Source: Thauera sp.
GTDB lineage: Bacteria > Pseudomonadota > Gammaproteobacteria > Burkholderiales > Rhodocyclaceae
Assembly: GCF_035444905.1 (NCBI RefSeq)
Contig: NZ_DAOMPS010000014.1
Location: 4,439 to 68,438 of the forward strand
Direction: 5' to 3'
Length of the DNA stretch: 64,000 nucleotides
The notes under the pieces were generated by a model. That model made no database searches, was not told where the DNA came from, and worked only from the letters and a program-made list of their open reading frames with translations. Of this stretch, positions 15,116-29,086 are shown in pieces. Positions within the stretch are counted from its first letter, which is position 1; each line of letters begins with the position of its first letter. A program made the position numbers and the translations under genes.

Positions 15116-16285
15116 ATGGATCTCGCCTACACCCCCCGCCAGAAAGCCTTCCGCGAGGAAGTGCGCGCCTGGCTCGCGGCCAACCTGCCGCGCGAGCCCC
15201 TGGCCAGCTACGACACCCGCGAGGGCTTCGAGCAGCACCGCGAATGGGAGCGCAAGCTGTTCGATGCGCGCCTGTCGATGGTGATCTGGCCCGAAGCCCT
15301 CGGCGGACGTGGCTGCGACCTCATCGAATGGCTGATCTTCGAGGAGGAGTACTACGGCGCCGGTGCCCCGATGCGGGTGAACCAGAACGGCCAGCTGCTG
15401 CTCGGCCCGACGCTGATCGAATTCGGCACCGAGGAACAGAAGGCGCGCTTCCTGCCGCGCATGTCCTCGAGCGAGGACATGTGGGCGCAGGGCTGGTCCG
15501 AGCCCAACGCCGGTTCCGACATGGCGGCGATCACCAGCAAGGCCATCCTGTCGGCCGACGGCACGCACTACGTGGTCAATGGCCAGAAGACCTGGTCGAC
15601 GCGGGCGAGCTTCGCCGACTGGCTGTTCGGCCTGTTCCGCAGCGACCCGGGCTCGAGCCGCCACCACGGCCTGTCCTACCTCGCGGTGCCGCTGGACGCG
15701 CCGGGCGTGACCATCCGCCCGATCCAGGCGCTCAACGGCAAGCAAGCCTTCGCCGAGATCTTCTTCGACGACGTCAAGGTGCCGGTCGACAACCGCATCG
15801 GTGACGAGGGCCAGGGCTGGCACGTGGCGATGGCCACGGCCGGCTTCGAGCGCGGCCTGCTGCTGCGCTCGCCGGCGCGCTTCCAGTACACCGCGCGCAG
15901 GCTGGTCGAGCTCTACAAGGCGAACCGCGAGGTCGCCGACCGCGACCCGAGCATCCGCGACGCGGTCATCGAGGCCTGGACCGGCACCGAGGCCTACGCG
16001 CTGTCGGCCTACCACACCGTCGGCCGCCTGGCGAAGGGCGCCCGCATCGGCGCCGAGGCCAGCACCAACAAGATCTACTGGTCCGAGCTCGACCTGAAGA
16101 TGCACGAGACCGCGATGCGCATCCTCGGCCCGCTCGGCGAGCTCACCGGCGACGCGCCGGCCGCAGTCGACGCAGCGCGCTGGCTGGACGGCTTCCTGTT
16201 CGCCCAGGCCGGGCCGATCTACGCCGGCACCAACGAGATCCAGCGCAACATCATCGCCGAGCGCATGCTCGGCCTGCCGAAATAA
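15116..16285 (+). CDS. Acyl-CoA dehydrogenase, catalytic-type subunit
   Basis: 389 aa. It has WSEPNAGSD and a C-terminal IYAGTNEIQRNIIAERMLGLPK with the catalytic-base Glu context. Confidence 0.92.
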   Translation: MDLAYTPRQKAFREEVRAWLAANLPREPLASYDTREGFEQHREWERKLFDARLSMVIWPEALGGRGCDLIEWLIFEEEYYGAGAPMRVNQNGQLLLGPTLIEFGTEEQKARFLPRMSSSEDMWAQGWSEPNAGSDMAAITSKAILSADGTHYVVNGQKTWSTRASFADWLFGLFRSDPGSSRHHGLSYLAVPLDAPGVTIRPIQALNGKQAFAEIFFDDVKVPVDNRIGDEGQGWHVAMATAGFERGLLLRSPARFQYTARRLVELYKANREVADRDPSIRDAVIEAWTGTEAYALSAYHTVGRLAKGARIGAEASTNKIYWSELDLKMHETAMRILGPLGELTGDAPAAVDAARWLDGFLFAQAGPIYAGTNEIQRNIIAERMLGLPK

Positions 16286-16298
16286 GGAAGGGGCCGCC

Positions 16299-17357
16299 AT
16301 GGACTTCACCTTCACCGACGACCAGCTCACCTTCCGCGAGGCGGTGAGCCGCTTCCTGATGACCGAGGCCGCCCCCGAGCGGCTGCGCGAGATCTGGGAC
16401 ACCGACACCGGGCGCTCGCCCGAGCTGCGCAAGAACATCGCCGAGCAGGGCCTGACCGCGCTGTCGGTGCCCGAGGACTGCGGCGGCCTGGGCATGGACG
16501 ACGTCGCCTGGGCGCTGATGACGCAGGAGCTCGGCTACTACGCCCTGCCGGATTCGCTCGCCGATGCCGCCTACGTCGCCGCCGGCCTCGTCACCGCGCT
16601 GCCTGCCGGCACCGCGTCGCGCGAGGAATGGCTCGCCCGCATTGCCGAGGGCAGCATCCGCATCGCGGTCGGCCATCCGGTCAACCCGCTGGTGGCCGAC
16701 GCCAACCCGGCCAACCTGCTGCTGCTCGCCGACGGCGACGCGGTGCATGCCGTGCCGCGCGAGCAGGTCGAGGTCGAGGCCAACCCCAGCATCGACCTGT
16801 CGCGCCGCCTGGCGCGCGTGCGCTGGACGCCGGCCGCCGCCACCCTGATCGCCGACGGCGAGAGCGGGCGCGCGCTGTGGGCGCAGACGCTCAACCGCGG
16901 CGTGCTGTCGGCCGCCGGCCAGCTGCTCGGCCTGGCGCAGCGCATGCTGGACCTGTCGGTCGACTACGTCGCCCAGCGCAAGCAGTTCGGCAAGCCGATC
17001 GGCAGCTTCCAGGCGGTCAAGCACCACCTCGCCGACGTCGCGACGAAGATCGAATTCGCCAAGCCGGTGCTGTACCGCGCCGCCTACGCGCTCGCGCACG
17101 GCGAGGCCGGTGCCGATGCGCGTGTCTCGCACGCCAAGCTCGCCTGCGGCGAAGCCGCCTGGCTGGCCGCGCGCCATGGCATCCAGGTGCACGGCGCGAT
17201 GGGCTACACCTGGGAAGTCGATCTGCAGATGTTCATGAAGCGCGCCTGGGCGCTCGATGCGTCCTGGGGCGACCGCGGCTTCCACAAGGCGCGGGTCGCC
17301 GATGCGATCCTGGTCGAGGGCGCCGTCCTCGGTCCCGGCCACACTTTCGAGGAATGA
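16299..17357 (+). CDS. Acyl-CoA dehydrogenase-fold partner subunit (lacks GTxEIQ catalytic-base motif)
   Basis: 352 aa with an ACAD fold (QVHGAMGYTWEVDLQMFMKRAW) but no YxGTxEIQ segment. It is adjacent to a catalytic-type ACAD. Confidence 0.88.
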   Translation: MDFTFTDDQLTFREAVSRFLMTEAAPERLREIWDTDTGRSPELRKNIAEQGLTALSVPEDCGGLGMDDVAWALMTQELGYYALPDSLADAAYVAAGLVTALPAGTASREEWLARIAEGSIRIAVGHPVNPLVADANPANLLLLADGDAVHAVPREQVEVEANPSIDLSRRLARVRWTPAAATLIADGESGRALWAQTLNRGVLSAAGQLLGLAQRMLDLSVDYVAQRKQFGKPIGSFQAVKHHLADVATKIEFAKPVLYRAAYALAHGEAGADARVSHAKLACGEAAWLAARHGIQVHGAMGYTWEVDLQMFMKRAWALDASWGDRGFHKARVADAILVEGAVLGPGHTFEE

Positions 17358-18523
17358 AGATGCGGGAAGCTTCCAATCAAGCCTACATTGTCGATGCCCT
17401 GCGCAGCCCCACCGGCAAGCGCAAGGGCGGTCTGTCCCACGTGCATGCGATCGACCTCGGTGCGCATGTCCTCAAGGCGCTGGTCGAGCGCAACGCCATT
17501 CCCGCCGACGAGTACGACGACGTGATCTTCGGCTGCGTCGACACCATCGGCTCGCAGGCGGGCGACATCGCGCGCACCGCGTGGCTGGCCGCCGGCCTGC
17601 CGCTGAACGTGCCCGGCACCACGGTGGACCGTCAGTGCGGCTCCTCGCAGCAGGCGGTGCACTTCGCCGCCCAGGCGGTGATGAGCGGCACCCAGGACGT
17701 GGTGGCGGTCGGCGGCGTGCAGACCATGACGCAGATCCCGATCTCGTCGGCCATGCTCGCCGGGCAGCCGCTCGGCTTTCCCGACCCGTTCTCGGGCAGC
17801 AAGGGCTGGAAGGCGCGCTTCGGCGACCAGCCGGTGAACCAGTTCTATTCCGCGCAGCGCATCGCCGACCACTGGCAGTGCAGCCGCCGCGACATGGAGG
17901 TCTATGCGCTCGAGAGCCACCGCCGCGCGCTGGCAGCGATCGCCGAGGGTCGTTTCGAGCGCGAAATCGTCGGCCTGGAGGGCGTGACGAGGGACGAGAC
18001 GCCGCGCGTGTCCACGCTCGAGAAGATGGCCGAGTTGGAACCGGTCGGCCCCGAGTACCCGTCGATCACCGCCGCGGTGTCGAGCCAGACCTGCGACGCC
18101 TCCGCTGCGCTGCTGGTGGTGTCCGAGGCCGCGCTCAAGCGCTACAACCTGACCCCGCGCGCGCGCATCCACCACCTGTCGGTGATGGGCGACGACCCGA
18201 TCTGGCACCTCACCGCGCCGATCCCCGCCACCCGCGCCGCGCTCAAGAAGGCCGGCATGCGCATGAGCGACATCGACGTGGTCGAGATCAACGAGGCCTT
18301 CGCCTCGGTGGTCATGGCCTGGCAGAAGGAACTCGACTACGACCCCGCGCGCATGAACCCCAACGGCGGCGCCATCGCCCTGGGCCACCCGCTCGGCGCC
18401 ACCGGCGCCCGCCTGATGACCGCGCTGCTGCACGAGCTCGAGCGCAGTGGCGGCCGTTATGGCCTGCAGACCATGTGCGAAGGTGGCGGCCAGGCCAACG
18501 TGACCATCATTGAACGCTTGTAA
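17354..18523 (+). CDS. Thiolase (acetyl-CoA C-acyltransferase)
   Basis: Tail of track ORF 16628..18523. ATG 17354 overlaps the preceding stop. It has [28 protein letters not shown] and CEGGGQANV. Confidence 0.92.
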   Translation: MKMREASNQAYIVDALRSPTGKRKGGLSHVHAIDLGAHVLKALVERNAIPADEYDDVIFGCVDTIGSQAGDIARTAWLAAGLPLNVPGTTVDRQCGSSQQAVHFAAQAVMSGTQDVVAVGGVQTMTQIPISSAMLAGQPLGFPDPFSGSKGWKARFGDQPVNQFYSAQRIADHWQCSRRDMEVYALESHRRALAAIAEGRFEREIVGLEGVTRDETPRVSTLEKMAELEPVGPEYPSITAAVSSQTCDASAALLVVSEAALKRYNLTPRARIHHLSVMGDDPIWHLTAPIPATRAALKKAGMRMSDIDVVEINEAFASVVMAWQKELDYDPARMNPNGGAIALGHPLGATGARLMTALLHELERSGGRYGLQTMCEGGGQANVTIIERL

Positions 18524-18537
18524 GAGAAGGGATCGAC

Positions 18538-19413
18538 ATGGGTATTTGTGAAGGACGCACCGTCATCATCACCGGCGCCGGCGGCGGCCTGGGCCGCGCC
18601 TATGCGCTGGCCTTCGCGGCCGAGGGCGCCAACGTGGTGGTCAACGACATCCGCAAGGAAGCCGCCGACGCCGTCGTGGCCGAGATCACCGCGGCAGGCG
18701 GCAAGGCGATCGCCAACGCCGACGACATCACCCGCATCGACACCGCGCAGCAGATCGTCGACGCCGCCGTGGCGGCCTTCGGCGAGGTGCACGTCGTCGT
18801 CAACAACGCCGGCATCCTGCGCGACCGCATGTTCATCAGCCTGTCCGAGGACGACTGGGACCAGGTCATGCGGGTGCACCTGAAGGGCCACTTCTGCCTC
18901 GCCAACATCCTCGGGAAGCGCTGGCGCGACCAGGCCAAGGCCGGCAACAGGATCGCCGCGCGCATCATCAACACCAGCTCCGGCGCCGGCCTGCAGGGCT
19001 CGGTCGGGCAGTCCAACTATGCAGCGGCCAAGGGCGGCATCGCCGCGCTCACCCTGGTGCAGGCTGCCGAGCTGGCGCGCTACGGCGTCACCGCCAACGC
19101 GCTCGCCCCGGCCGCGCGCACCTCGATGACCGAGAGCGCGATGCCCGACGTGGTCAAGGCGCCCGAGAGCGGCTTCGACGCCTGGGCGGCGGAGAACGTG
19201 GCCCCGCTGGTGGTGTGGCTGGGCAGCGGACAGTCCTCGCACGTCACCGGCCAGGTGTTCGAGAGCCAGGGCGGTCGCATCTCGGTGTGCGACGGCTGGC
19301 GCACCGGTCCGCAGAAGGACAAGGGCGCGCGGCTGACGGTGCAGGAAGCCGGGGCCATGGTCGATGAACTGATGAAGCAGGCCGTGCCTGCGCAGAAGGT
19401 ATGGGGAACCTGA
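18538..19413 (+). CDS. SDR, MFE-2/Hsd4A-like hydroxyacyl-CoA dehydrogenase type
   Basis: It has ITGAGGGLGRAYA, NNAGILRD and YAAAKGGIAAL. Confidence 0.88.
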   Translation: MGICEGRTVIITGAGGGLGRAYALAFAAEGANVVVNDIRKEAADAVVAEITAAGGKAIANADDITRIDTAQQIVDAAVAAFGEVHVVVNNAGILRDRMFISLSEDDWDQVMRVHLKGHFCLANILGKRWRDQAKAGNRIAARIINTSSGAGLQGSVGQSNYAAAKGGIAALTLVQAAELARYGVTANALAPAARTSMTESAMPDVVKAPESGFDAWAAENVAPLVVWLGSGQSSHVTGQVFESQGGRISVCDGWRTGPQKDKGARLTVQEAGAMVDELMKQAVPAQKVWGT

Positions 19414-19414
19414 C

Positions 19415-21001
19415 ATGAGCGAGCAGGCGGTGGAGCAGGGGCGTCGTGATTTCCTGAAGGCGGGTGCAGCGCTCGGTGGCGCGGCGGCTGTGGGTCTGAG
19501 TGGGGCCAAAGCGGCTGGTGCTGCGGGTACGGCTGCGGCGGCCACGCCTGCGGCTCTGCCACTGCCCGAGTACGAGCAGTGGGACGCGACCGAGATCGCG
19601 CTGCGCATCCGCCGCGGCGACGTCAAGCCGAGCGAGGTGCTCGAGGCGGCGATCGCCCGCGCCGAGGCCTACGCGGCGATCAACGCGGTCACCGTGCCGC
19701 ACTTCGATCTCGCTCGCGAGGCTGCTCGCGCGCTCGACGCGGCCGGGCAGGCTGAGCGCGCGGCGCGCCCGGCCTTGTCCGGCGTGCCGTTCGCGCTCAA
19801 GGACCTCGGCATCGCCCTCAAGGGCACGGTCACCACCAACGGCTGCGCCTTCTTCCAGGACGCCGTCGCCGACCACGATTCCACCCTGGTGCAGCGCTAC
19901 CAGGCGGCGGGCCTCAACATCTTCGCCAAGCTCGCCTCGCCCGAGTTCGGCCAGACCGCCTCCACCGAATCGCGCCTGTTCGGCGCCACCCGCAACCCCT
20001 GGGATCTGGAGCGCAGCTCCGGCGGTTCCTCGGGCGGCGCCTCGGCGGCGGTGGCCGCGGGCGTGCTGCCGGCGGCGCATGCGAGCGACGGCGGCGGCTC
20101 GATCCGCATCCCGGCCTCGCACTGCGGCCTGTTCGGCCTCAAGCCCAGCCGCGGCCTCATCCCGATGGGCCCGAAGTCACTCGAAGGCTGGCTCGGCCTG
20201 TCCGCGCACAACGTGATCAGCCGCAGCGTGCGCGATACCGCGCTGCTGATGCAGCTCAGCCAGGGCGCCGAGCCCGGCGCGCGCACCCTGCCGCCCACCG
20301 CAGACCTGCTCGCGGCGCTCGAGCAGGCACCGCGCGGACTCAGGATCGGCCTGTTCCAGGCCAACCTGTTCGGCGCCGGCGTGCACGCGGAGTGCATCGA
20401 GGCGTCCAACAAGGCGGCCACGCTGTGCACCAGCCTCGGCCACCACGTCGAGCCGATCGACCTGTCGGCACTGCCCTTCCTCGAGATGGCGGGCAGCATG
20501 GGCGTCGTCACCGCCAGCGGCATGCTCTACACCGTACAGGCGCGCGAGAAGGCCATCGGCCGCGAGGCGCGCGAGGACGAGTTCGAGCCGATCGACTGGC
20601 AAAGCATGCAGAAGGCGAAGACCTACACCGCGCAGCAGGTCTTTGCCGCGCGCACGGTGTTCGATCGGGGTGGCCGCGTGTTCGATGAGCTGTTCTCGCG
20701 CTACGACCTGATCCTGTCGCCGACCACGGCCGCGCTGCCGCCCAAGCTCGGCGAGCTCTCGCTCGACCAGCCCTTCGAGAACTTCGCGCGCCGGGCGGTG
20801 CTGGCCTCGGCCTTCACCTCGATGTTCAACATGACCGGCCTGCCGGCGATGTCGGTGCCGCTGCACTGGAGCGCGGAAGGCCTGCCGATCGGCGTGCAGT
20901 TCGCCGCGCCCTATGGTGGCGAGGCGCGCCTGATCGCACTGGCCGCGCAGCTCGAGAAGGCCGCGCCGTGGGCAGACCGCCGGCCGCCGGCGCTGGCTTG
21001 A
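19415..21001 (+). CDS. Amidase-signature enzyme with twin-arginine (Tat) signal peptide
   Basis: The N-terminus has GRRDFLKAGAALGGAAAVG followed by an Ala-rich region. It also has the amidase signature GGSSGGASAAVAAG and SDGGGSIRIPA. Confidence 0.9.
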   Translation: MSEQAVEQGRRDFLKAGAALGGAAAVGLSGAKAAGAAGTAAAATPAALPLPEYEQWDATEIALRIRRGDVKPSEVLEAAIARAEAYAAINAVTVPHFDLAREAARALDAAGQAERAARPALSGVPFALKDLGIALKGTVTTNGCAFFQDAVADHDSTLVQRYQAAGLNIFAKLASPEFGQTASTESRLFGATRNPWDLERSSGGSSGGASAAVAAGVLPAAHASDGGGSIRIPASHCGLFGLKPSRGLIPMGPKSLEGWLGLSAHNVISRSVRDTALLMQLSQGAEPGARTLPPTADLLAALEQAPRGLRIGLFQANLFGAGVHAECIEASNKAATLCTSLGHHVEPIDLSALPFLEMAGSMGVVTASGMLYTVQAREKAIGREAREDEFEPIDWQSMQKAKTYTAQQVFAARTVFDRGGRVFDELFSRYDLILSPTTAALPPKLGELSLDQPFENFARRAVLASAFTSMFNMTGLPAMSVPLHWSAEGLPIGVQFAAPYGGEARLIALAAQLEKAAPWADRRPPALA

Positions 21002-21011
21002 TTGATCGCAG

Positions 21012-21302
21012 TCAGAGGTGGCGGCCGGTGTCCATGCGCTCATGCAGTACGCGCATCACAACGGTCACCCCCTGATCGATGCAGAAATAGACCCAGTGGT
21101 GTTCTACCCGCCAGCGCCGGTAGCCCTTGCGGATATGTTCGCAAGCCGGCGCGGAGAGGGGCTCCCGGGCAAACTGTTCGAAGGCTGCGTTGAGGAGATC
21201 GAGGTATCGCTCTGCCTGCGCAGCGCTCCATCGCCGCGCTGTGTAGCGCCAGATGTCTTCCAGATCTCGAACCGCGGCTGGCGAGAGTTGGAACTCAGCG
21301 AT
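21012..21302 (-). CDS. parE: ParE-family toxin reading frame with no canonical start codon (ATC at the expected ATG)
   Basis: Not in the ORF track. The reverse frame reads (I)AEFQLSPAAVRDLEDIWRYTARRWSAAQAERYLDLLNAAFEQFAREPLSAPACEHIRKGYRRWRVEHHWVYFCIDQGVTVVMRVLHERMDTGRHL-stop. An in-frame TGA lies 3 codons upstream of the ATC. The first ATG comes only 14 codons before the stop. Confidence 0.6.
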   Translation of the reverse strand: MAEFQLSPAAVRDLEDIWRYTARRWSAAQAERYLDLLNAAFEQFAREPLSAPACEHIRKGYRRWRVEHHWVYFCIDQGVTVVMRVLHERMDTGRHL

Positions 21303-21392
21303 GCTCGGCGTTCATGCGTGCTTTGAAGGCCTCAAGATCAAAGGGCTGTGCGGGTCCGCTGTTCTCGCCCTCGATCAGAGCAGCACGGATCG
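21255..21392. repeat. Direct repeat copy A (parE 5-prime end / parD 3-prime end), paired with 23299..23436
   Basis: By-eye ungapped alignment to 23299..23436 gives about 80% identity, for example ATCTCGAACCGC and TTCATGCGTGCTTTGAAGGC...TCCGCTGTTCTCGCCCTCG. Confidence 0.8.
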
Positions 21393-21540
21393 CTTCGGTT
21401 TGCGCCGTGCCCGCCTGCTCGCGACGAATCAGGTCGCGGATGTACTCGCTGTCGTTGGTGTAATGCCCCGCCTCGATCTGCGCTTTGATCCAGCGATCCT
21501 GCTGGTCGGTCAAGGTGATGGTCTTGCGTACGACGGACAT
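21295..21540 (-). CDS. parD: ParD-family (RHH/CopG) antitoxin
   Basis: 81 aa: MSVVRKTITLTDQQDRWIKAQIEAGHYTNDSEYIRDLIRREQ... It lies immediately upstream of the ParE frame and overlaps it. Confidence 0.88.
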   Translation of the reverse strand: MSVVRKTITLTDQQDRWIKAQIEAGHYTNDSEYIRDLIRREQAGTAQTEAIRAALIEGENSGPAQPFDLEAFKARMNAEHR

Positions 21541-21717
21541 GATGATCTCCTGGAGAAAGCGACTTTAATCATACTATCGGTGCAGAGCTTGTCTATATTG
21601 ATGTTGGGTTGCTTGTCACCACGGTGTACCCAAGTGGCGGACTCGACTATTCCGAGCTGGCGGCAGAGCAGGTTGGATATACTCGTTTTGTCGCGTATAT
21701 CTTATTGAGGTGCAACC

Positions 21718-21960
21718 ATGCATGTCGCCAAATGGGGCAATTCGCTCGCCGTCCGCCTGCCTGCGGCGGTGGTTCAGGCCCTGGATCTGAAGGAAGGGGA
21801 AGAGATCGAGCTGCATGTCGCTGGCGAGCGCTCTCTCGAGGTCGCGCGCAAGACGCCGCCACAGGAACTGGTGGCCCGCCTGCGCCGCCTTCGTGGCAGG
21901 CTTCCTGCGGACTTCCGCTTCGACCGCCTCGAGGCCAACGATGCCGACCGCGAGCGCTGA
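21718..21960 (+). CDS. vapB: AbrB/SpoVT-family antitoxin (VapB-type)
   Basis: MHVAKWGNSLAVRLPAAVVQALDLKEGEEIEL. Its end overlaps the PIN gene by 20 nt. Confidence 0.85.
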   Translation: MHVAKWGNSLAVRLPAAVVQALDLKEGEEIELHVAGERSLEVARKTPPQELVARLRRLRGRLPADFRFDRLEANDADRER

Positions 21961-22363
21961 ACCAACCCGCCGGGTATTTCTCGACACCAACGTTGTGCTC
22001 TACCTGCTGTCCGCCGACGAGCGCAAGGCGAACATGGCCGAAGCGCTGCTGGCACAGGGTGGCCTGGTCAGCGTGCAGGTACTGACCGAGGCCGCGTCGG
22101 TCTGCCTGCGCAAGCTCAACCTGCCCTGGCCCGAGGTCCGCGAACTGCTCGACGCAGTGAAAGCCTGCTGCGAGGTGCTCCCGCTCACGCTTCCCGTCCA
22201 TGAACGCGCGCTGTATCTCGCGGAGCGGTATCGGCTATCGCTTTACGACGCGCTGATCTGCGCGGCGGCTCAGAGCGCCGGTGCCGAAGTGCTTTACACC
22301 GAGGACTTGCAGGACGGTCTGGTGCTCGATGGCCTGACCGTCCGCAATCCTTGCAATGGTTGA
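21941..22363 (+). CDS. vapC: PIN-domain toxin (VapC-type)
   Basis: Track ORF 21815..22363 trimmed to ATG 21941. It has VFLDTNVVLY, YDALICAAA and YTEDLQ acidic residues in PIN spacing. Confidence 0.87.
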   Translation: MPTASAEPTRRVFLDTNVVLYLLSADERKANMAEALLAQGGLVSVQVLTEAASVCLRKLNLPWPEVRELLDAVKACCEVLPLTLPVHERALYLAERYRLSLYDALICAAAQSAGAEVLYTEDLQDGLVLDGLTVRNPCNG

Positions 22364-22536
22364 TGCCCTGTTGCCTGATTCTTTGCGGAGACCTTCCTGG
22401 CTCTGCGCGGGCGGATCGCCTATTCGGCAGTCTGCTCATCGAAGCGGATGATGTGGGCCTGGCTGGGCCTCTCCGCGGATGACAAACCGAAGCAGCGGCG
22501 TTGAAGTGGAGCAATCAGTGCACTACACTCCGATGC

Positions 22537-22764
22537 ATGCCGATCCTGCAACGCTTCAACGACGTACGTGTTCTGATGTACCTGAGCGACCATCCCCCGC
22601 CCCATGTGCACGTGAAGCTGCGTGACGGCAGGGAGTGCACCGTTGATATCGACGACGGCGTAATCAAGGGCCGGGTGTCCGAACGCGAAATACGTGAAGC
22701 GCTGGCCTGGATCGAAACGAACCGGGATTTCCTGTTCGACGAATGGCGGAGGAACAACCCGTGA
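22537..22764 (+). CDS. DUF4160-family small protein
   Basis: Track ORF 22501 (TTG) trimmed to ATG 22537. It has the hallmark LSDHPPPHVHV. Confidence 0.8.
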   Translation: MPILQRFNDVRVLMYLSDHPPPHVHVKLRDGRECTVDIDDGVIKGRVSEREIREALAWIETNRDFLFDEWRRNNP

Positions 22765-23255
22765 GCGATTACTTTTTCCCGAAGCTGACAGCCGTTGTGG
22801 CGCTGGCACCCTACCGCCTGCGCACCACCTGGAGCACGGGTGAAGTGCTGGAGGTCGATGTGGGCGAAATCCTGCGCGAGGTCCCAGCGCTCGCACCCAT
22901 CCTCGAACCCGAGGTGTTTGCGCGTGCGCATATCGCCGAGTGGGGCGGCGGCATCGAGTGGTTCGATACCGAGTTTGGCGAGGACAACGTCTATGCGTGG
23001 GCCAAGGAGCAGGCCGGTGAAGTCAGTCATGAAATGTTCGGCGACTGGATGCACCGTAACGATCTGTCGCTGACCACGGCGGCCGAGGCGCTCGGCATCA
23101 GCCGCCGCATGGTGAGCTACTACCGCACCGCGCACAAAGCCATTCCGCGTTCCATCTGGCTGGCCTGCCTCGGTTGGGAAGTCACTCGACCGACGACGAA
23201 GACACTGCCGCGTACCTTGCCGACGGTACGCGAGTACGCTGCCGCGCGTGCTTGA
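22761..23255 (+). CDS. DUF2442-like protein with C-terminal HTH extension
   Basis: GTG 22761 has GGAGG 8 nt upstream and forms a GTGA overlap with the DUF4160 stop. ATG 22743 is the alternative start. The C-terminal part LSLTTAAEALGISRRMVSYYRTAHKAIP looks like an XRE-type HTH. Confidence 0.72.
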   Translation: MSDYFFPKLTAVVALAPYRLRTTWSTGEVLEVDVGEILREVPALAPILEPEVFARAHIAEWGGGIEWFDTEFGEDNVYAWAKEQAGEVSHEMFGDWMHRNDLSLTTAAEALGISRRMVSYYRTAHKAIPRSIWLACLGWEVTRPTTKTLPRTLPTVREYAAARA

Positions 23256-23295
23256 GCCTGAAGGCCTCATCGCCTGATCTGGACGCGAACGGTGG

Positions 23296-23340
23296 TCAGT
23301 CTTCGATATCTCGAACCGCTGCTGGAGAGCGTTCAAACTC
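23296..23340 (-). pseudogene. Truncated parE remnant (14 codons)
   Basis: The reverse frame EFERSPAAVRDIED-stop aligns to the N-terminus of the ParE frame at 21302 (EFQLSPAAVRDLED). It lies just downstream of the hsdS-parD fusion stop. Confidence 0.55.
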
Positions 23341-23436
23341 AGTCGTGCTCCGCCTTCATGCGTGCTTTGAAGGCTGCCAGGTCAAAGGGCTGCTGCGGTC
23401 CGCTGTTCTCGCCCTCGCGCAGCGCAGCGCCGATCG
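23299..23436. repeat. Direct repeat copy B, paired with 21255..21392
   Basis: See copy A. It covers the parE stump and the last roughly 32 codons of the hsdS ORF. Confidence 0.8.
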
Positions 23437-25108
23437 GGGTCGTCACTTCGGCGATCAGGGCCTCAGCCAGATGCGCCTGCTTGGTCTGGGCTGCGGTGAG
23501 GCGGGCCTTGAGGCTGGCGGTCATTGCCTGCAGCTTTTCGACCTGGGCGACGATGCGGGATTGTTCGGCGAGCGGGGGAAGCGCAAAGCGATATGAGAAG
23601 AGCTTCTCTGACTCCAGTTTGCACGTCCCATGCGTTGATCGATCGACCAATGCCAGGATGTCGGACTTGAAACCCCGCATTGCCAAAGCGAGATAGCTGC
23701 TTAGCGATTCCGCATAGGGCGTGAGCGATTTCATGTCCTGATTGATGGTTACCTCCGTCTGCGTAACGCCAACAGGAAACGAGTGCGCAAGAATCATCCC
23801 GCGTACAACGACCAATATGCTGTTTGGTGGAACCAGCGGAAGGCGCGTTTCCTCTAGCGCAGCAGGCGACACGTGGTCAATCGCATCGGCGATCAGGGCA
23901 ACCTTCATGTCCTTTGGACTCACCCACGGAATCGAACCGTCCCAGTAGCGACCTATGTTCTTGCTGGGTGTTGAACCCCCGCCGATCTGGCATAGCTCCG
24001 GAATCGTGACCCACACCCATCCCTCCGGCAGCTCATAGGGCTTTTCGTCGTCGCTGACCGGCAGCAATTGCTTGTCGCGCTTGATCCTCCCTTCCTTGAT
24101 CAGTCGGTCCTTCTCGGCGCGGATCTTCTTGAGCAGCTCGCTGGCGGGCTCGTCGTTCGGGTCTTGCGGGACGAGTTTGCCGCGCACGGCGAGCTGGAGC
24201 AGGGTGGCGTCGAGGCGGTCGATGGATTCGGGCGTGGTGAAAAGGGTGTCGAAATGCGCGGCGAGGTGCTGCCAGTGGCGGCGGAATTCGTCGGCGTCGG
24301 CGGATTCGGCGAGTTGGTCGAGCGCGGCCTCGACCCAGTGCCCCTGCACCCGCGCGGCGTGGCCTTGCTCGGCTTCGAGCCGGTCGCACAGGGCCATGAG
24401 TTCCTCGACCTTGGCGACGATGCGGGATTGTTCGGCAAGTGGGGGGAGAGGCGCGAGCGTCTTCTCCATGCTGTCCTTCGTCATGTGCAACATGGAGACG
24501 CCATGCCCGCCAGCTTTCAGCTCTTGCGTTCTCTCATGCAAGAACGTGTAGAGATACTGCTTGTTCAGGTCTGCCGGACTGTGAAGGTTCAGCTTCCAGA
24601 TGTGGTAGTGGTAAATCGCTTTCGGACCAGACCAGATGAAGGGGCCGAACGAGGCAGACCAGGCGAACAGCAGATCACCCTCCTCGCAATATTTGTCGTC
24701 TTCAAGTGTCAGGTCGGAGTAGTACCAATGGGATGACGTAAACAAATTCCCCACGCGGAGAACGGGGGTGCCAGCTTCGAGTAGTTCGTGCTGTTTGTAG
24801 GCTCGTCCATTCAGCACGGTAACGAGGTCGGCAAGGCGCACCCACTCCCAACCCACGGGGAGTTGGTAGGGTTTTTCATCCTCAAAAATGTCGGGTAGCG
24901 GCTTGTTCCGCTTGATCCTCCCTTCCTTGATCAGCCGATCTTTCTCCGCACGAATCCGCTTCAGCAGCTCGCCCGCCGGCTCGTCGTTTGGGTCCTGCGG
25001 CATCAGGCTGCCACGCACGGCGAGGCTCAGGATCAGTTCGCGCAGCCTGGCGACACCGCCCGCGCTGGTGGCGAGCAGGTCGAAGTTCTCCAGCAGCGCT
25101 GCGCTCAT
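23339..25108 (-). CDS. hsdS: Type I restriction-modification specificity subunit HsdS, with C-terminal tail derived from ParD
   Basis: Track ORF 23339..25873 trimmed to ATG 25108, which forms an ATGA overlap with the hsdM stop. There are two target-recognition domains separated by repeated conserved regions (LPPLAEQSRIVAKVEEL / LPPLAEQSRIVAQVEKL). The tail AALREGENSGPQQPFDLAAFKARMKAEHD matches the ParD C-terminus AALIEGENSGPAQPFDLEAFKARMNAEHR. Confidence 0.9.
   Translation of the reverse strand: MSAALLENFDLLATSAGGVARLRELILSLAVRGSLMPQDPNDEPAGELLKRIRAEKDRLIKEGRIKRNKPLPDIFEDEKPYQLPVGWEWVRLADLVTVLNGRAYKQHELLEAGTPVLRVGNLFTSSHWYYSDLTLEDDKYCEEGDLLFAWSASFGPFIWSGPKAIYHYHIWKLNLHSPADLNKQYLYTFLHERTQELKAGGHGVSMLHMTKDSMEKTLAPLPPLAEQSRIVAKVEELMALCDRLEAEQGHAARVQGHWVEAALDQLAESADADEFRRHWQHLAAHFDTLFTTPESIDRLDATLLQLAVRGKLVPQDPNDEPASELLKKIRAEKDRLIKEGRIKRDKQLLPVSDDEKPYELPEGWVWVTIPELCQIGGGSTPSKNIGRYWDGSIPWVSPKDMKVALIADAIDHVSPAALEETRLPLVPPNSILVVVRGMILAHSFPVGVTQTEVTINQDMKSLTPYAESLSSYLALAMRGFKSDILALVDRSTHGTCKLESEKLFSYRFALPPLAEQSRIVAQVEKLQAMTASLKARLTAAQTKQAHLAEALIAEVTTPIGAALREGENSGPQQPFDLAAFKARMKAEHD
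24078..24200. repeat. hsdS internal repeat, copy 1 (pairs with 24908..25030)
   Basis: CGCTTGATCCTCCCTTCCTTGATCAG...CTCGTCGTTCGGGTC recurs at 24908 with roughly 75-80% identity by eye. It encodes RGxLxPQDPNDEPAxELLKxIRAEKDRLIKEGRIKR. Confidence 0.75.
24908..25030. repeat. hsdS internal repeat, copy 2
   Basis: See 24078..24200. Confidence 0.75.
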
Positions 25109-26574
25109 GCCTGCCCCTCGAGCGCGGCGGCGAGGATGGCCTTGAGTTCGTCGCGCGTGGTCTGGATCTGGGCCTGCAGCGCGGTGTACTGCGCAAGCAG
25201 TTCCTGCGGGTCGTGGCTGTCTTCCTCGGGGTGGTGCGGGTTCTTGATGTCGAGGTTGAAGTTGCGCGCGCGCAGCTCGTCGATGCTGACCTTCCAGGCG
25301 AACTCGGTCTCGACGCGGGCGGCGAAGCCATCTTCTTCCGTGCCCCACCAGGCTTTCTCGGCAGCGAATTCCTCGATGCGGATGGGCTTGGTCTTGGAGT
25401 AGCTCTTGTAGCCGGCGGGGTAGGGGTGCTCGTAGTACCAGACGTGCTCGGTGGGCCGGCCCTTGGTGAAGAACAGCAGGTTGGTCTTGATGCCGGTGTA
25501 GGGCGCGAACACGCCGTTGGGCAGGCGCACGATGGTGTGCAGGTTGCACTCGGTGAGCAGGCGCTCCTTGATGCGGGTCTTCACGCCTTCGCCGAACAAG
25601 GTACCGTCGGGCAGCACCACCGCCGCGCGGCCGCCGTCCTTGAGCAGGTGCATGATCAGCACCAGGAAGAGGTCGGCGGTTTCCTTGGTGCGGATGTCGG
25701 CGGGGAAGTTGGCCTCGATGCCGGGTTCCTCGGTGCCACCGAAGGGCGGGTTGGTGAGGATGACGTCGACGCGGTCGGCCGGGCGGTAGTCGCGCAGCGG
25801 GCGCGACAGGGTGTTGTCGTGGCGGATCTGGCTGGGCACTTCGATGCCGTGCAGTAGCATGTTGGTGACGCACAGCAGGTGCGGGAGCTGCTTCTTCTCG
25901 ACGCCCGACACCGCGCGTTGCCAGGTGTGGCGATCCTCGACCGTGCGGATCTGGTCGCGCAGGTGCTCGAGCGTGCAGGCGAGGAAGCCGCCGGTGCCGC
26001 AGGCGGGGTCGAGCATGCGCTCGCCGAGTCGGGGATTGACCTGGTCGACCATGAACTGGGTGACCGCGCGCGGGGTGTAGAACTCGCCCGCGTTGCCAGC
26101 GCTCTGCAGGTCCTTGAGGATCTTTTCGTAGAGGTCGTTGAAGAGGTGGCGCTCGGCCTGGTCGTTGAAGTCGATCTCGTTGATCTTGTTGATGACCTGG
26201 CGCAGCAGCTGGCCGGACTTCATGTAGTTGTAGGCGTCCTCGAACACCGACTGCACGACGTAGCCGCGCGGGTTGCGCGCGGGGTCGGCGGCGAGGCCTT
26301 TCATGCCGGGGAAGAGTTCGGTGTTGATGAAATCCTGCAGATCGTCGCCGGTGATGCCTTCGGCGTCCGCCGCCCAGTTGCGCCAGCGCAGCGGCTCGGG
26401 GATGGGCGAGCGGTAGCGGTCGTGCATCAGCTCGAGCTCGGTCTCCTGGTCGTCGAAGATCTTGAGGAAGAGCAGCCAGCTGAGCTGCGACAGGCGTTGG
26501 GCGTCGCCGTCGACGCCGGCGTCTTGCCGCATGATGTCCTGGATGGATTTGATGAGGGTGGTGCTGATTGCCAT
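25105..26574 (-). CDS. hsdM: Type I restriction-modification N6-adenine methyltransferase subunit HsdM
   Basis: 489 aa with an HsdM_N-like start, the SAM motif DPACGTGGFL and the catalytic NPPFGG. Confidence 0.95.
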   Translation of the reverse strand: MAISTTLIKSIQDIMRQDAGVDGDAQRLSQLSWLLFLKIFDDQETELELMHDRYRSPIPEPLRWRNWAADAEGITGDDLQDFINTELFPGMKGLAADPARNPRGYVVQSVFEDAYNYMKSGQLLRQVINKINEIDFNDQAERHLFNDLYEKILKDLQSAGNAGEFYTPRAVTQFMVDQVNPRLGERMLDPACGTGGFLACTLEHLRDQIRTVEDRHTWQRAVSGVEKKQLPHLLCVTNMLLHGIEVPSQIRHDNTLSRPLRDYRPADRVDVILTNPPFGGTEEPGIEANFPADIRTKETADLFLVLIMHLLKDGGRAAVVLPDGTLFGEGVKTRIKERLLTECNLHTIVRLPNGVFAPYTGIKTNLLFFTKGRPTEHVWYYEHPYPAGYKSYSKTKPIRIEEFAAEKAWWGTEEDGFAARVETEFAWKVSIDELRARNFNLDIKNPHHPEEDSHDPQELLAQYTALQAQIQTTRDELKAILAAALEGQA

Positions 26575-26620
26575 GGTGCCTTTGGTTGCTTGAGGTGCTG
26601 CGGCGGGTCGTCCGCGTCCT

Positions 26621-26651
26621 TTGCCGGCGATTTTGCCGGTTTTCTTGCCGG
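26621..26651. repeat. Three TTGCCGG heptamers at 12-bp phase
   Basis: TTGCCGG at 26621, 26633 and 26645, in the hsdR-hsdM spacer just upstream of the hsdM start. Confidence 0.7.
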
Positions 26652-26721
26652 CTACGTCACTTCCGGAAGCCTTGTCCGTACTGGGATGCCGGCACGATCT
26701 GACGTCTGAACTCCCGATTTC

Positions 26722-26752
26722 TTGCCGGTTGTTCTGCCGGTTAGTTTGCCGG
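26722..26752. repeat. Three (T/C)TGCCGG heptamers at 12-bp phase
   Basis: TTGCCGG at 26722, CTGCCGG at 26734 and TTGCCGG at 26746. The last copy lies inside the final codons of hsdR. Confidence 0.7.
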
Positions 26753-29086
26753 CTGCTGGTACAGCCCGCGCTCTAGCTCGCGGATGGCGCCGAGGTAAGC
26801 GGGCTTGCCGCCGAAGGCCTTGATGATCTGGGAGACGGAGCCGAGCGCATCGAAGGGCTGGAGCTGCAGCACTTCCATGCTTTCCACCTCGGTGATGCCG
26901 GCGTCGGCGTACTTGTCGAGCAGCAGCTCCAGCACCTTGCGCGCGGTGCCTTCGTAGCGGGTGAAGTAATCGCGCTTGCGGACGTTGTCGGCGCGCTCGC
27001 GGCGGGTGAGTGGCTTGCGGCCGAAGGCGATGTGGCAGACGAGGTCGAAGGGGTCGAGCGCCTTGCCGGTCTCCTTGGCAAGCTCCTCGAAGAGGATGCC
27101 CTGGTTTTCCAGTTCGGCGATGACGGCAGCCTTGCGGTCGGCGTCGTTCCAGGTCTTGAGGAAATCGTCGAGCGAGGCGAAGCGCTTGCCGATCTGGATG
27201 CGGGTGTAGTCGCGCAGCGATTCGGTGATGAGGCGGCCGTCGGTGCCGTAGTACTGCACGCGCTCGTTCACCACATAGACCGGCACGTCCTTGATGACGT
27301 ACTTGATGCGTTCGCCGCCAGTCGTGGGAGCTTCGGGAAGCTCGCCGGGCTGGCCCCGAGTCTCCTGGTCCGGTGGCGGCGGGTCCTCCGGCGGCACAAC
27401 GGGCTCATCGCCACTCGGGTTGTAGATGACCGCCGGCTCGCCATCGAAGGCCGGGTCGGCAAACAGTTCGGTCGCGCGCTTGAAGTCGAGGATGGAGAAC
27501 CAGAGCTTGCCGTACTCCTCGTCGATGCGGGTGCCGCGGCCGATGATCTGCTTGAACTCGGTCATCGAGTTGATGGTGCGATCGAGCACGACGAGCTTGC
27601 AGGTCTTGGCGTCGACGCCGGTGGTCATGAGCCGGCTGGTGGTGGCGATGACCGGGTACGGCTTTTCGGGGTCGATGAAGTTGTCGAGCTCGAGCTTGCC
27701 CTCGAGGTTGTCGCCGGTGATCTGCATCACGTACTTGGGGTTGCGGCTGGCGAGGTCGGCGTTGGCGTTGATCAGCGCCTGGCGCATGCGCGCGGCGTGG
27801 TCGATGTCCTCGCAGAACACGACGGTCTTGGCCATGCGGTCCGTGCCGCGGAGGAATTCGCTGATGCGCCGGGCGACGGCCTCGTCGCGCTGGGTGAGCA
27901 CCAGCGTGCGGTTCATGTCGCCCTGGTTGTAGATGCGGTCCTCGACGAGCTGGCCCCTGGAATCGAGCTTGCCGGCCTGCGGTCGCCAGCCGAGGTCCTT
28001 GTCGAGATCGACGCGGATGACCTTGTAGGGGGCGAGAAAGCCGTCCTCGATGCCCTGCTTGAGCGAGTAGGTGTAGACCGGCTCGCCGAAGTAGCTGATG
28101 TTGGAGACCTCTTCGGTTTCCTTGGGCGTGGCGGTGAGCCCGAGATGCACGGCGCCGCTGAAGTAGTCGAGCACCGCGCGCCAGGCGGAGTCCTCGGCCG
28201 CGCTGCCGCGGTGGCATTCGTCGATGACGACGAGGTCGAAGAAATCCGGGCTGAACTGGCGGTAGATGTTCTTCTCTTCCTCGCTGCCGGTGACGGCCTG
28301 ATAGAGCGAGAGGTAGATCTCGTAGGACTTGTCGATCGAGCGGTTCTCGATCTTGGTCATCGCGCCGCCGAAGGGCTTGAAGTCGTTGCTCTTGGTCTGG
28401 TCGACGAGGATGTTGCGGTCGGCGAGGAAGAGGATGCGGCTGTTGGGGTGCGACTTCCAGAACCGCCAGATGATCTGGAAGGCGGTGTACGTCTTGCCGG
28501 TGCCGGTCGCCATGACGAGCAGGACGCGGTCCTGCCCCTTGGCGATGGCCTCGATGGCGCGGTTGACCGCTGTCGTCTGGTAGTAGCGCGGCTGCTTGCC
28601 GGTGTTGTGGTAGTCCTGCGCGTAGACCGGGGCGATATCGGCGCCGATGCCTTTCCAGGCCAGATAGCGCTGCCACAGCACCTCGGGAGACGGGAAGTCG
28701 CTCAGCGCGATCTCGGTTTCGAGGGCGCCATCGGTGCGCGTCCTGTCGTGGAAGACGAAGCCGTCACCGTTGCTGGAGAAGGCGAAGGGCACGTCGAGCA
28801 TCGTCGCGTAGTCCAGCGCCTGCTGGATGCCGTCGCGCATCGAGTGGTTGTTGTCCTTGGCTTCAACGACGGCGAGCGGCAGACCCGGCTTGTAGTAGAG
28901 GACGTAGTCCGCGCGCCGGATGCTGTTCTTGTCGCGCCTCCCGGTCTGCCCGCGCACAACGACGCGGCCGTCGGTGAGCCGGACTTCCTCGCGCACCTGC
29001 AGCTCGGTGTTCCACTGCGCCGCAGCGATCGCCGGGGTGATGTACTGGGTGCAGATGTCGCGTTCGGACAGCGTCTTCTTGGTCAT
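26741..29086 (-). CDS. hsdR: Type I restriction endonuclease subunit HsdR
   Basis: Track ORF 26741..29137 trimmed to ATG 29086 ([20 protein letters not shown]). It has an N-terminal nuclease region (ADYVLYY...VVEAKD), Walker A MATGTGKT and a DEAH-type VIDECHRGS. Confidence 0.93.

What the first reader, a model, noticed from the sequence alone, without database searches (positions are those of the whole stretch)
23296..23436. hsdS ends in a ParD tail: 138-bp direct repeat, parE stump and in-frame hsdS-parD chimera
The segments 23299..23436 and 21255..21392 align without gaps at roughly 80% identity by eye. In copy A this DNA is the parE 5-prime end plus the parD 3-prime end. In copy B the parE part is a 14-codon stump (EFERSPAAVRDIED-stop). 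The parD part is read in frame as the last roughly 30 residues of HsdS (…AALREGENSGPQQPFDLAAFKARMKAEHD versus ParD …AALIEGENSGPAQPFDLEAFKARMNAEHR). The type I restriction cassette has therefore landed in, or recombined with, a second parDE locus. The vapBC and DUF4160/DUF2442 modules are now bracketed by the two repeats, so they could be looped out by homologous recombination. Whether the ParD tail affects HsdS assembly is unknown.
Basis: seen in the sequence. Interest (0 to 1): 0.7.

Follow-up and report, generated by a model that had tools for sequence, protein, structure and literature searches.

The report
Inherited hsdS–parD fusion scar in Thauera
A restriction-enzyme specificity gene in this Thauera genome really does end in the last 29 residues of a decayed antitoxin gene, but the fusion is an old scar shared by one lineage of a highly variable defence island and is most likely a harmless floppy appendage.

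Summary
Segments 21255-21392 and 23299-23436 match at 113 of 138 bases without gaps. HsdS residues 556-588 are 79% identical to ParD 48-80. A 14-codon parE stump follows the hsdS stop.

The interpretation needs revising. The fusion was not made in this genome and does not depend on the neighbouring parDE. The same junction and the same stump occur in at least nine other assemblies of Thauera and close relatives, on hsdS alleles with seven different target-recognition-domain combinations. Several of those loci have no parDE.

Related HsdS proteins normally end 44-49 residues after the last PPLAEQ motif; the fused alleles end after 79. The roughly 130-nt parD'/parE' patch is flanked on both sides by sequence colinear with sister alleles that carry a different 37-residue tail. 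No 5' half of parD exists in the window.

An exhaustive search of 1.84 billion representative proteins found the fusion only in this lineage. AlphaFold gives the tail pLDDT 29-47, against a confident HsdS body. Substitutions in the tail look relaxed, but the test lacks power.

The best reading is a near-neutral scar in a mosaic toxin-antitoxin/restriction island. A ParE-binding role for the tail is not excluded.

The parts
23339..25108 (-). Chimeric hsdS (589 aa). Residues 1-555 are a normal type I specificity subunit; residues 556-589 are the appended tail.
   Evidence: Two PF01420 stretches, E 1e-35. Exact protein is HRP24026.1 / WP_324539388.1, Thauera sp.. AF2 mean pLDDT 85, with the last conserved helix at 513-556.
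23342..23428 (-). ParD-derived tail coding region (HsdS 561-589 = ParD A53 to the end), the hsdS-side part of repeat copy B.
   Evidence: 79% aa identity to ParD 48-80. Matches Pfam ParD profile positions 51-78. pLDDT 29-47.
23426..23443 (-). Junction zone (HsdS T556-A561). Sequence is patchily similar to both the alt-tail hsdS alleles and parD, with C-GCT-G microhomology.
   Evidence: Alignment A3 and multi-locus alignment.
23296..23346 (-). parE stump: the former start codon (now ACG), 14 sense codons EFERSPAAVRDIED, and stop at 23296-23298.
   Evidence: Translation. Identical in L001, L018 and L028, nearly identical in L003 and L027.
23256..23295 (.). Spacer between the stump and the DUF2442 stop. 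It is colinear with the hsdS-DUF2442 spacer of alt-tail alleles.
   Evidence: Alignment A3.
21255..21392 (-). Repeat copy A: 3' part of intact parD_A plus the first 14 codons of parE_A.
   Evidence: the repeat finder family D1.
21295..21540 (-). parD_A, intact 81-aa antitoxin, with a promoter-like site at 21568-21595.
   Evidence: PF03693 E 7e-15. PDB relatives 6X0A, 3KXE, 8C24, 7B22. Promoter scan.
21012..21302 (-). parE_A, with an intact reading frame but ATC in place of the ATG start codon.
   Evidence: PF05016 E 1e-18. Frames. ATG in L010, L013, L016 and L024.
21718..22363 (+). vapB (21718-21960) and vapC (21941-22363), lying between the two repeats.
   Evidence: PF04014 and PF01850.
22537..23255 (+). 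DUF4160 (22537-22764) and DUF2442 (22743-23255) pair, lying between the two repeats.
   Evidence: PF13711 and PF10387.
22424..22438 (.). Mosaic breakpoint. Sequence to the left is 97.6% identical to Thauera sp. WH-1; sequence to the right is 96-97% identical to the L028/L003 type.
   Evidence: blastn of the window against all fetched loci.
25105..29086 (-). hsdM (25105-26574) and hsdR (26741-29086), both intact.
   Evidence: N6_Mtase and HsdM_N. ResIII, EcoEI_R_C and HSDR_N.

Best explanation
The end of hsdS is an inherited fusion scar.

In an ancestor of this Thauera island lineage, a roughly 130-nt piece of a parDE module became joined in frame to hsdS just after its last conserved helix. 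The piece comprised the last 29 codons of parD, the overlapping stop/start, and the first 14 codons of parE. It replaced the 3' end of an hsdS allele that previously carried a different 37-residue C-terminal extension. The join lies at a short microhomology (C-GCT-G).

The donor parD had diverged from the neighbouring parD_A while still a working gene. The toxin gene was reduced to a startless stump.

The chimeric 3' end then spread among island variants by homologous recombination inside hsdS. It now sits on alleles with many different target recognition domains.

The window's island is itself a recombinant. Its left arm (amidase, parDE_A, vapBC) resembles Thauera sp. WH-1. Its right arm (DUF4160, DUF2442, stump, hsdS) resembles the L028/L003 type. 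That recombination is what placed an intact parDE 2 kb from the scar and created the 138-nt direct repeat.

The tail is most likely a disordered, near-neutral appendage that does not stop HsdS from assembling with HsdM and HsdR.

Shown: the repeat, the fusion, its wide sharing, the normal HsdS end, the colinear flanks, the mosaic identity pattern, and the low model confidence for the tail.

Inferred: the order of events, the neutrality of the tail, and the functionality of the enzyme.
For: - Repeat and fusion are real.
- Normal HsdS C-terminus: 44-49 aa after PPLAEQ in nearly all of about 120 homologues. The closest relatives end ...AEALIAEV[A/V/C]. Fused alleles end after 79 aa and alt-tail alleles after 83 aa.
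- Same junction and same stump in L001, L002, L003, L018, L027 and L028, and with variation in L009, L019 and L026.
- Seven TRD combinations carry the tail.
- No parDE in the loci L001, L003 and L027.
- Both flanks of the patch are colinear with the alt-tail alleles L012 (Thauera sp. 2A1) and L020.
- No other parD or parE similarity in the window.
- B-type tails against free ParD_A give dN 0.09-0.16 and dS 0.72-0.76, so the divergence arose mostly under purifying selection. Within B-type tails dN/dS is 0.52 (6 nonsynonymous, 4 synonymous events). The same codons of free ParD_A give 0.11 (4 nonsynonymous, 7 synonymous events).
- Nonsynonymous changes in the tails hit positions conserved in the alignments to PDB ParDs: G to E in the SG motif, L to P after FD, and I to R or L before EG.
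- AF2: body pLDDT 85-95, tail 29-47, with the tail starting where helix 513-556 ends.
- An exhaustive HMMER search of 1.84e9 representatives finds end-to-end matches only in two clusters, both from this lineage. No species-representative genome has the fusion.
- Mosaic structure: window 16001-22438 is 97.6% identical to Thauera sp. WH-1, and 22424-25488 is 96.8% identical to L028.
- A natural alt-tail allele truncated to 63 aa (L021) suggests that sequence beyond the last helix may be dispensable.
Against: - The relaxed-constraint test is not significant (Fisher p = 0.39). dN/dS of 0.5 is still below 1.
- The tail keeps most of the ParD motif (EGENSGP..PFD..F), including the region that determines toxin specificity in ParD3 (PMC7354431, mapped through).
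- No frameshift or premature stop has removed the tail in any of about ten fused alleles.
- The order of events between the two patch types is unresolved. One illegitimate junction, or one exchange with a free parDE, must be assumed.
- Enzyme activity was not tested.
Confidence: 0.75

Rival explanations
1. The tail is functional. It would be a ParE-binding peptide tethered to HsdS. It could neutralise a ParE toxin, either a resident one or one brought in by a plasmid (anti-addiction). Alternatively it could couple the restriction complex to a gyrase poison.
For: - The tail is the C-terminal part of ParD, the part of type II antitoxins that neutralises the toxin (PMC7354431). It includes the positions equivalent to the ParD3 specificity residues 60, 61 and 64.
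- It is kept in frame in about ten alleles with seven TRD combinations.
- dN/dS within the tails is 0.52, not 1.
- Low pLDDT is also what is expected of an antitoxin tail without its toxin.
- The anti-addiction concept is established for chromosomal antitoxins (PMC2654758).
Against: - The cognate parE is a 14-codon stump without a start codon in every fused allele.
- In the window the only other parE has its own antitoxin and has lost its ATG.
- No contig was found with the fusion followed by a full parE.
- Non-conservative changes sit at family-conserved positions in several alleles.
- The fusion is confined to one lineage out of 1.84e9 representative proteins.
- Sister alleles do without it, carrying short or alt tails.
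Confidence: 0.1
2. The fusion arose recently in this genome, either by recombination between hsdS and the neighbouring parDE or by insertion of the hsd cassette into a second parDE locus.
For: Two parDE-like segments lie 2 kb apart in direct orientation.
Against: - The same junction and stump occur in other assemblies that lack parDE in the locus.
- The copies differ by 18%, with dS about 0.7.
- No 5' half of parD is present anywhere in the window.
- The flanks are colinear with alt-tail alleles.
Confidence: 0.03
3. The direct repeat is recombinationally active. The alleles L009/L019 and L026 would be descendants of a loop-out between a B-type scar and a free parDE_A, followed by loss of the now unprotected parE.
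For: - These alleles share the hsdS/parD junction with the B type.
- From GCTGCACTG onward they are 96-99% identical to free parD_A, against 85-88% to the B type.
- They lack vapBC and DUF4160/DUF2442.
- They are followed by the 3' flank of parE_A and the SnoaL_4 form that accompanies parE_A.
Against: - parE is a stump ending after codon 14, as in the B type. A fresh deletion would hit the same codon only by coincidence.
- The opposite order is equally compatible: these alleles could be the original fusion with the resident parDE_A.
- The clean loop-out product was not found.
Confidence: 0.3
4. The ParD-like end is a native domain of this HsdS family, or it is an assembly artefact.
For: The tail recurs in many HsdS proteins.
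Against: - Homologues end 33 residues earlier.
- A parE stump follows the tail.
- The Pfam match is to the ParD family.
- The structure is seen in independent NCBI, JGI, ENA and Logan assemblies.
Confidence: 0.02

Closest known systems
Decaying chromosomal toxin-antitoxin loci and orphan antitoxins. Examples are ccdO157 decay in E. coli and the Caulobacter parDE locus with a parE pseudogene.
   Same: A chromosomal parDE module has lost its toxin and survives only as a fragment. A second module in the same island (parDE_A) has a toxin without a start codon. This matches the described fate of chromosomal TA systems (PMC2654758; PMC7354431, section 4.2).
   Different: Here the surviving antitoxin fragment is not a free pseudogene. 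It is translated as the C-terminus of an unrelated, apparently working protein, and it is propagated on many alleles of that protein.
Type I restriction-modification loci with embedded toxin-antitoxin genes, such as the pneumococcal tvr/SpnIV locus with tvrAT (phd-doc).
   Same: TA genes sit inside or against an hsd operon whose hsdS is diversified by recombination of target recognition domains (PMC6265443).
   Different: In tvr the TA pair is intact and separate from hsdS, and shuffling is driven by a site-specific recombinase. Here no recombinase is seen, TRD exchange appears to be between strains, and the TA module is a fused remnant.
ParD antitoxins of the PF03693 family with solved ParD-ParE complexes (3KXE, 5CEG/6X0A, 7R5A/7B22, 8C24).
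   Same: The tail aligns with the C-terminal, toxin-contacting part of these antitoxins.
   Different: The ribbon-helix-helix DNA-binding and dimerisation half is absent. The score is below the Pfam cut-off. A specificity-position residue (I56) is R or L in the tail. No partner toxin is encoded.
Natural C-terminal length variation of HsdS.
   Same: Sister alleles carry a 37-residue 'alt tail', and Pseudomonas homologues carry a 219-residue extension. The end of HsdS therefore tolerates additions.
   Different: Those extensions have no recognisable origin: no Pfam hit and no similarity to parDE. The tail here has an identifiable donor gene.

Membership tests
Type I R-M specificity subunit (HsdS, PF01420) | Two target recognition domains | tested here: met
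   Two Methylase_S stretches, E 1e-35. Two beta-rich domains in the AF2 model.
Type I R-M specificity subunit (HsdS, PF01420) | Central and C-terminal conserved helical regions that repeat each other | tested here: met
   Internal 78-nt repeat at 76% identity, 23504-23581 and 24371-24448. Long helices 224-267 and 513-556.
Type I R-M specificity subunit (HsdS, PF01420) | Operon with intact hsdM and hsdR | tested here: met
   hsdM 489 aa overlaps the hsdS start. hsdR is 781 aa with ResIII, EcoEI_R_C and HSDR_N domains.
Type I R-M specificity subunit (HsdS, PF01420) | Directs sequence-specific methylation and restriction | not testable with these tools
   Needs a methylome or a restriction assay.
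ParD antitoxin (PF03693) | N-terminal ribbon-helix-helix DNA-binding/dimerisation domain | tested here: not met
   Only profile positions 51-78 of 81 are matched. Upstream sequence is HsdS.
ParD antitoxin (PF03693) | C-terminal toxin-binding region | tested here: met
   26/33 identical to ParD_A 48-80. Aligns to the C-terminal part of 3KXE and 6X0A ParD through ParD_A. Actual binding was not tested.
ParD antitoxin (PF03693) | Score above the Pfam gathering threshold | tested here: not met
   19.1 bits against 21.
ParD antitoxin (PF03693) | Intact cognate parE immediately downstream | tested here: not met
   14 codons followed by a stop, with the start codon changed to ACG.
ParE toxin (PF05016), for the stump | Full-length fold of about 95 aa with a start codon | tested here: not met
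   Only residues 2-15 remain.

The most novel reading that the evidence does not exclude
The ParD-derived tail is kept because it works. An HsdS-tethered, promoter-independent ParE-neutralising peptide would protect the cell against ParE toxins of incoming plasmids or of sister island variants (anti-addiction). Alternatively it would tie the stability of the restriction complex to a ParE toxin. This would be a natural case of an antitoxin module co-opted as a C-terminal tag of a defence enzyme.
Probability: 0.07. Interest if true: 0.7.

Novelty: new member of a known kind. Interest (0 to 1): 0.3.

Why it matters
The result mainly serves as a caution and as a small case study.

- A chimeric ORF that looks like a fresh recombination event in one genome turns out to be a population-wide polymorphism of a hypervariable restriction/toxin-antitoxin island.
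- The apparent 'direct repeat bracketing two modules' was assembled by recombination between island variants.
- The end of HsdS tolerates replacement of about 35 residues.
- A translated antitoxin fragment can persist on many specificity alleles.
- The public annotation (WP_324539388.1, 'restriction endonuclease subunit S') hides the chimera.

If the tail did bind ParE, it would be an unusual link between restriction-modification and toxin-antitoxin systems. The present evidence does not favour that.

Tried and rejected
- The word-indexed protein search with the 80-aa C-terminus returned only fragments and one free ParD. It gave no information on distribution.
- The scan of species-representative genomes found CR2-only or ParD-only matches and no fusion.
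- I suspected that the 219-aa C-terminal extension of the 747-aa Pseudomonas HsdS forms was an antitoxin-type domain. Pfam gave no hit, so the idea was dropped.
- I tested whether the 'alt tail' plus spacer is an older, more decayed parDE remnant. Local alignment scores were no better than for shuffled sequence.
- No terminator-like site was found at the hsdS end.
- dN/dS for the parE stump was computed in a wrong frame. Those stump numbers are discarded.
- The nonsynonymous/synonymous comparison of fused tails against free ParD is not significant (p = 0.39).
- Literature searches for an HsdS-antitoxin fusion or for a Thauera island description found nothing specific.
- A ParE-plus-tail complex prediction was not attempted. 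Only window sequences can be submitted, and a single-chain construct without an alignment would be uninformative.

Full report
**Observation.** The region was read on both strands and ORFs were listed.

The repeat finder gives a single long direct repeat, 21255-21392 and 23299-23436. It is 138 nt long and 82% identical without gaps. That is 113 of 138 matches. The chance probability is about 1e-29 after correcting for all offset pairs in the 64-kb, 68% G+C window.

Copy A spans the 3' end of an intact parD (21295-21540, minus strand; PF03693) and the 5' end of parE (21012-21302, minus strand; PF05016).

In copy B the parE frame gives EFERSPAAVRDIED and then a stop at 23296-23298. The parD part is the in-frame end of a 589-aa HsdS (23339-25108, minus strand). 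This HsdS has two Methylase_S stretches and overlaps the end of hsdM. HsdS 556-588 is 26/33 identical to ParD 48-80 (E 1e-14). The tail alone hits only the ParD Pfam model, at positions 51-78 and just below the cut-off.

**Where HsdS normally ends.** A search with the whole HsdS returned thousands of homologues. Among the 120 best, the distance from the last PPLAEQ motif to the C-terminus is 44-49 residues in nearly all of them. The closest relatives share the same conserved region and end ...AEALIAEV[A/V/C]. The window protein has 79 residues after the motif, which is 33 extra. The tail is therefore an addition and not a family feature.

**The fusion is not private to this genome.** Eight other database proteins carry the same tail: P0001-P0004, P0081, P0083, P0096 and P0117. 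With the window protein they show seven different combinations of target recognition domains.

Their contigs place them at the same chromosomal site, between an amidase gene and an SDR/MaoC pair. The assemblies come from Thauera and close relatives. The window itself is a 91-kb contig of a Thauera sp. MAG. Its HsdS is annotated simply as a restriction subunit S.

In L001, L002, L003, L018, L027 and L028 three things are the same as in the window to within a few bases: the hsdS/parD junction, the 14-codon stump, and the junction of the stump with the spacer before DUF2442. L001, L003 and L027 contain no parD or parE gene anywhere in the 11-18 kb recovered. The scar therefore predates this genome and does not depend on the neighbouring parDE_A.

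**Sister alleles and the anatomy of the patch.** Alleles with the same conserved regions have three kinds of end:
- a short form of 46 residues (P0005, P0008, Thauera sp. WH-1);
- the ParD tail of 79 residues;
- an 'alt tail' of 83 residues, TT.TP...GRE..GLALL.KAA.Q (P0006, P0007, P0098, Thauera sp. 2A1), which is truncated to 63 residues in L021.

I aligned the window with the alt-tail loci L012 and L020. The two types are colinear on the left through ...GAA(G/C)TGAC.ACCCCGA. They are colinear again on the right from ACC.CCGTT through CAGATCA.GC to the DUF2442 stop. Between these points about 130 nt of parD'/parE' stands in place of about 165 nt of alt tail and spacer.

The left junction lies in a C-GCT-G microhomology (alt CCC GCT GAA; parD CGT GCT GCT). 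The securely ParD-derived part is therefore HsdS 561-589, equivalent to ParD A53 to the end. TTPIG at 556-560 corresponds to TTPTP of the alt-tail alleles.

The window holds no other parD or parE similarity, so there is no displaced 5' half of parD. The alt tail and its spacer show no significant similarity to parDE.

The picture is a short parDE patch inside an otherwise colinear hsdS 3' region. It is not an hsd cassette dropped into a parDE locus. How the patch arose remains an inference. It could be two deletions in an hsdS-parD-parE arrangement, or a microhomology-mediated copy.

**Two patch types and the loop-out idea.** L009 (identical to L019) and L026 carry the same junction. From GCTGCACTG onward their tail is 96-99% identical to the free parD_A genes of the locus, and only 85-88% identical to the window-type tail. 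They lack vapBC and DUF4160/DUF2442. After a stump that again ends at codon 14, they are followed by the 3' flank of parE_A and the SnoaL_4 variant that accompanies parE_A in L024.

This is close to what recombination between the two repeats would leave, but parE is not full length. The opposite order is equally possible: these alleles could be the original fusion with the resident parDE_A. Either way, one exchange with a free parDE or one additional illegitimate junction has to be assumed. I could not decide between the two. No contig with the fusion followed by a complete parE was found.

**Origin of the repeat in this genome.** blastn of the window against all fetched loci shows that 16001-22438 is 97.6% identical to Thauera sp. 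WH-1. That strain has amidase, parE_A, parD_A, vapB and vapC in the same order. It then has a different gene and an hsdS with the short end. Window 22424-25488 is 96.8% identical to L028 and 96.1% identical to L003, which carry DUF4160, DUF2442, the stump and the fused hsdS.

The window's island is therefore a recombinant of two variants. That is what brought the intact parDE_A to within 2 kb of the scar.

The two copies are old paralogues or alleles. B-type tails against free ParD_A give dN 0.09-0.16 and dS 0.72-0.76, so most of the divergence accumulated while both were under purifying selection.

**Is the tail constrained?** Within the six B-type alleles, dN/dS in the tail is 0.52 (6 nonsynonymous and 4 synonymous events). 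The same codons of five free ParD_A genes give 0.11 (4 and 7 events). The adjacent HsdS conserved region gives 0.33. The contrast points to relaxation but is not significant (Fisher p = 0.39).

The nonsynonymous changes include G to E in the SG motif, L to P after FD, and K to S. B-type tails also have R or L where free ParD_A has I56, before EG. The first two positions and I56 are conserved in the alignments to solved ParDs.

ParD_A is homologous to ParD3 (5CEG/6X0A), ParD1 (3KXE, 8C24) and ParD2 (7B22). A review states that type II antitoxins neutralise through their less structured C-terminal part. It also states that ParD3 residues 60, 61 and 64 set toxin specificity (PMC7354431). By the alignment these correspond to ParD_A L55, I56 and E59, which read L, R and E in the window tail.

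The tail thus contains the toxin-recognition segment. It has a changed residue at a specificity position and has no partner.

**Structure.** AlphaFold2 with a 45-sequence alignment gives a confident HsdS (mean pLDDT 85). The last conserved helix ends at residue 556. Residues 557-589 have pLDDT 29-47. This fits a flexible appendage. It is also what an antitoxin tail looks like without its toxin, so it does not discriminate between the readings.

**Distribution.** A scan of one genome per species found no fusion. A metagenome scan added two more fused loci of the same lineage. An exhaustive HMMER search of 1.84 billion representative proteins with the last 80 residues found end-to-end matches in only two clusters, both from this lineage. 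More than 1,600 other hits matched only the HsdS part. There is no sign of recurrent or widespread HsdS-ParD architecture.

**Conclusion.** The finding is real and correctly described. It is best explained as an inherited, probably near-neutral fusion scar in a mosaic restriction/toxin-antitoxin island of Thauera.

The closest known situations are decaying chromosomal TA loci and orphan antitoxins (PMC2654758, PMC7354431) and type I loci with embedded TA genes (PMC6265443). The literature searches found no description of an HsdS-antitoxin chimera.

The most novel reading not excluded is that the tethered ParD fragment still binds a ParE. I put that at about 7%.

Noticed in passing
window 21300-21302 (parE_A start, minus strand): The intact parE_A has ATC where four related loci (L010, L013, L016, L024) have the ATG start that overlaps the parD stop. 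The same base change turns the last ParD residue from G to R. No other in-frame ATG, GTG or TTG occurs before about codon 79. The toxin is probably not translated or barely translated, while parD_A keeps a promoter-like site at 21568-21595.
   Followed up: partly
L001 5327-6520; L004 4499-5449 and 6931-7983; L010 968-2227: Variants of the same island carry extra genes inside or next to the hsd operon. These are Fic between hsdR and hsdM, Abi_2 between hsdR and hsdM, DUF1016/YhcG between hsdM and hsdS, and an SLFN_AlbA_2 + HATPase_c_4 protein after hsdS.
   Followed up: no
L016 9022-9700; L024 503-1400; L013 3120-3455: Some relatives have lost the restriction system through deletions that leave fused remnants: hipB joined to the 5' part of vapC, hipA with an internal deletion, and a 3' fragment of hsdS alone.
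   Followed up: partly
P0006, P0007, P0098; L012 10128-10253; L021 3686-3877: A 37-residue 'alt tail' (TT.TP...GRE..GLALL.KAA.Q) ends many sister HsdS alleles. It has no Pfam hit and no similarity to parDE. In L021 a premature stop shortens it to 63 residues after PPLAEQ.
   Followed up: partly
P0016, P0020, P0021, P0025, P0030 (Pseudomonas and metagenomes): HsdS homologues of 747 aa carry a 219-residue C-terminal extension beyond the usual end. Pfam finds nothing in it.
   Followed up: partly
window 22424-22438: A recurrent junction point of the island. To its left different loci have vapC or SnoaL_4. To its right they have DUF4160 or the AlbA_2-type gene. No repeat or recombinase was identified that would explain the shared breakpoint.
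   Followed up: no
L011 (Dongia sp. MAG, 1508-1651): An hsdS conserved region 88% identical in protein to the Thauera one (90% at the DNA level) sits on a contig binned as an alphaproteobacterium. This suggests horizontal transfer or a binning error.
   Followed up: no
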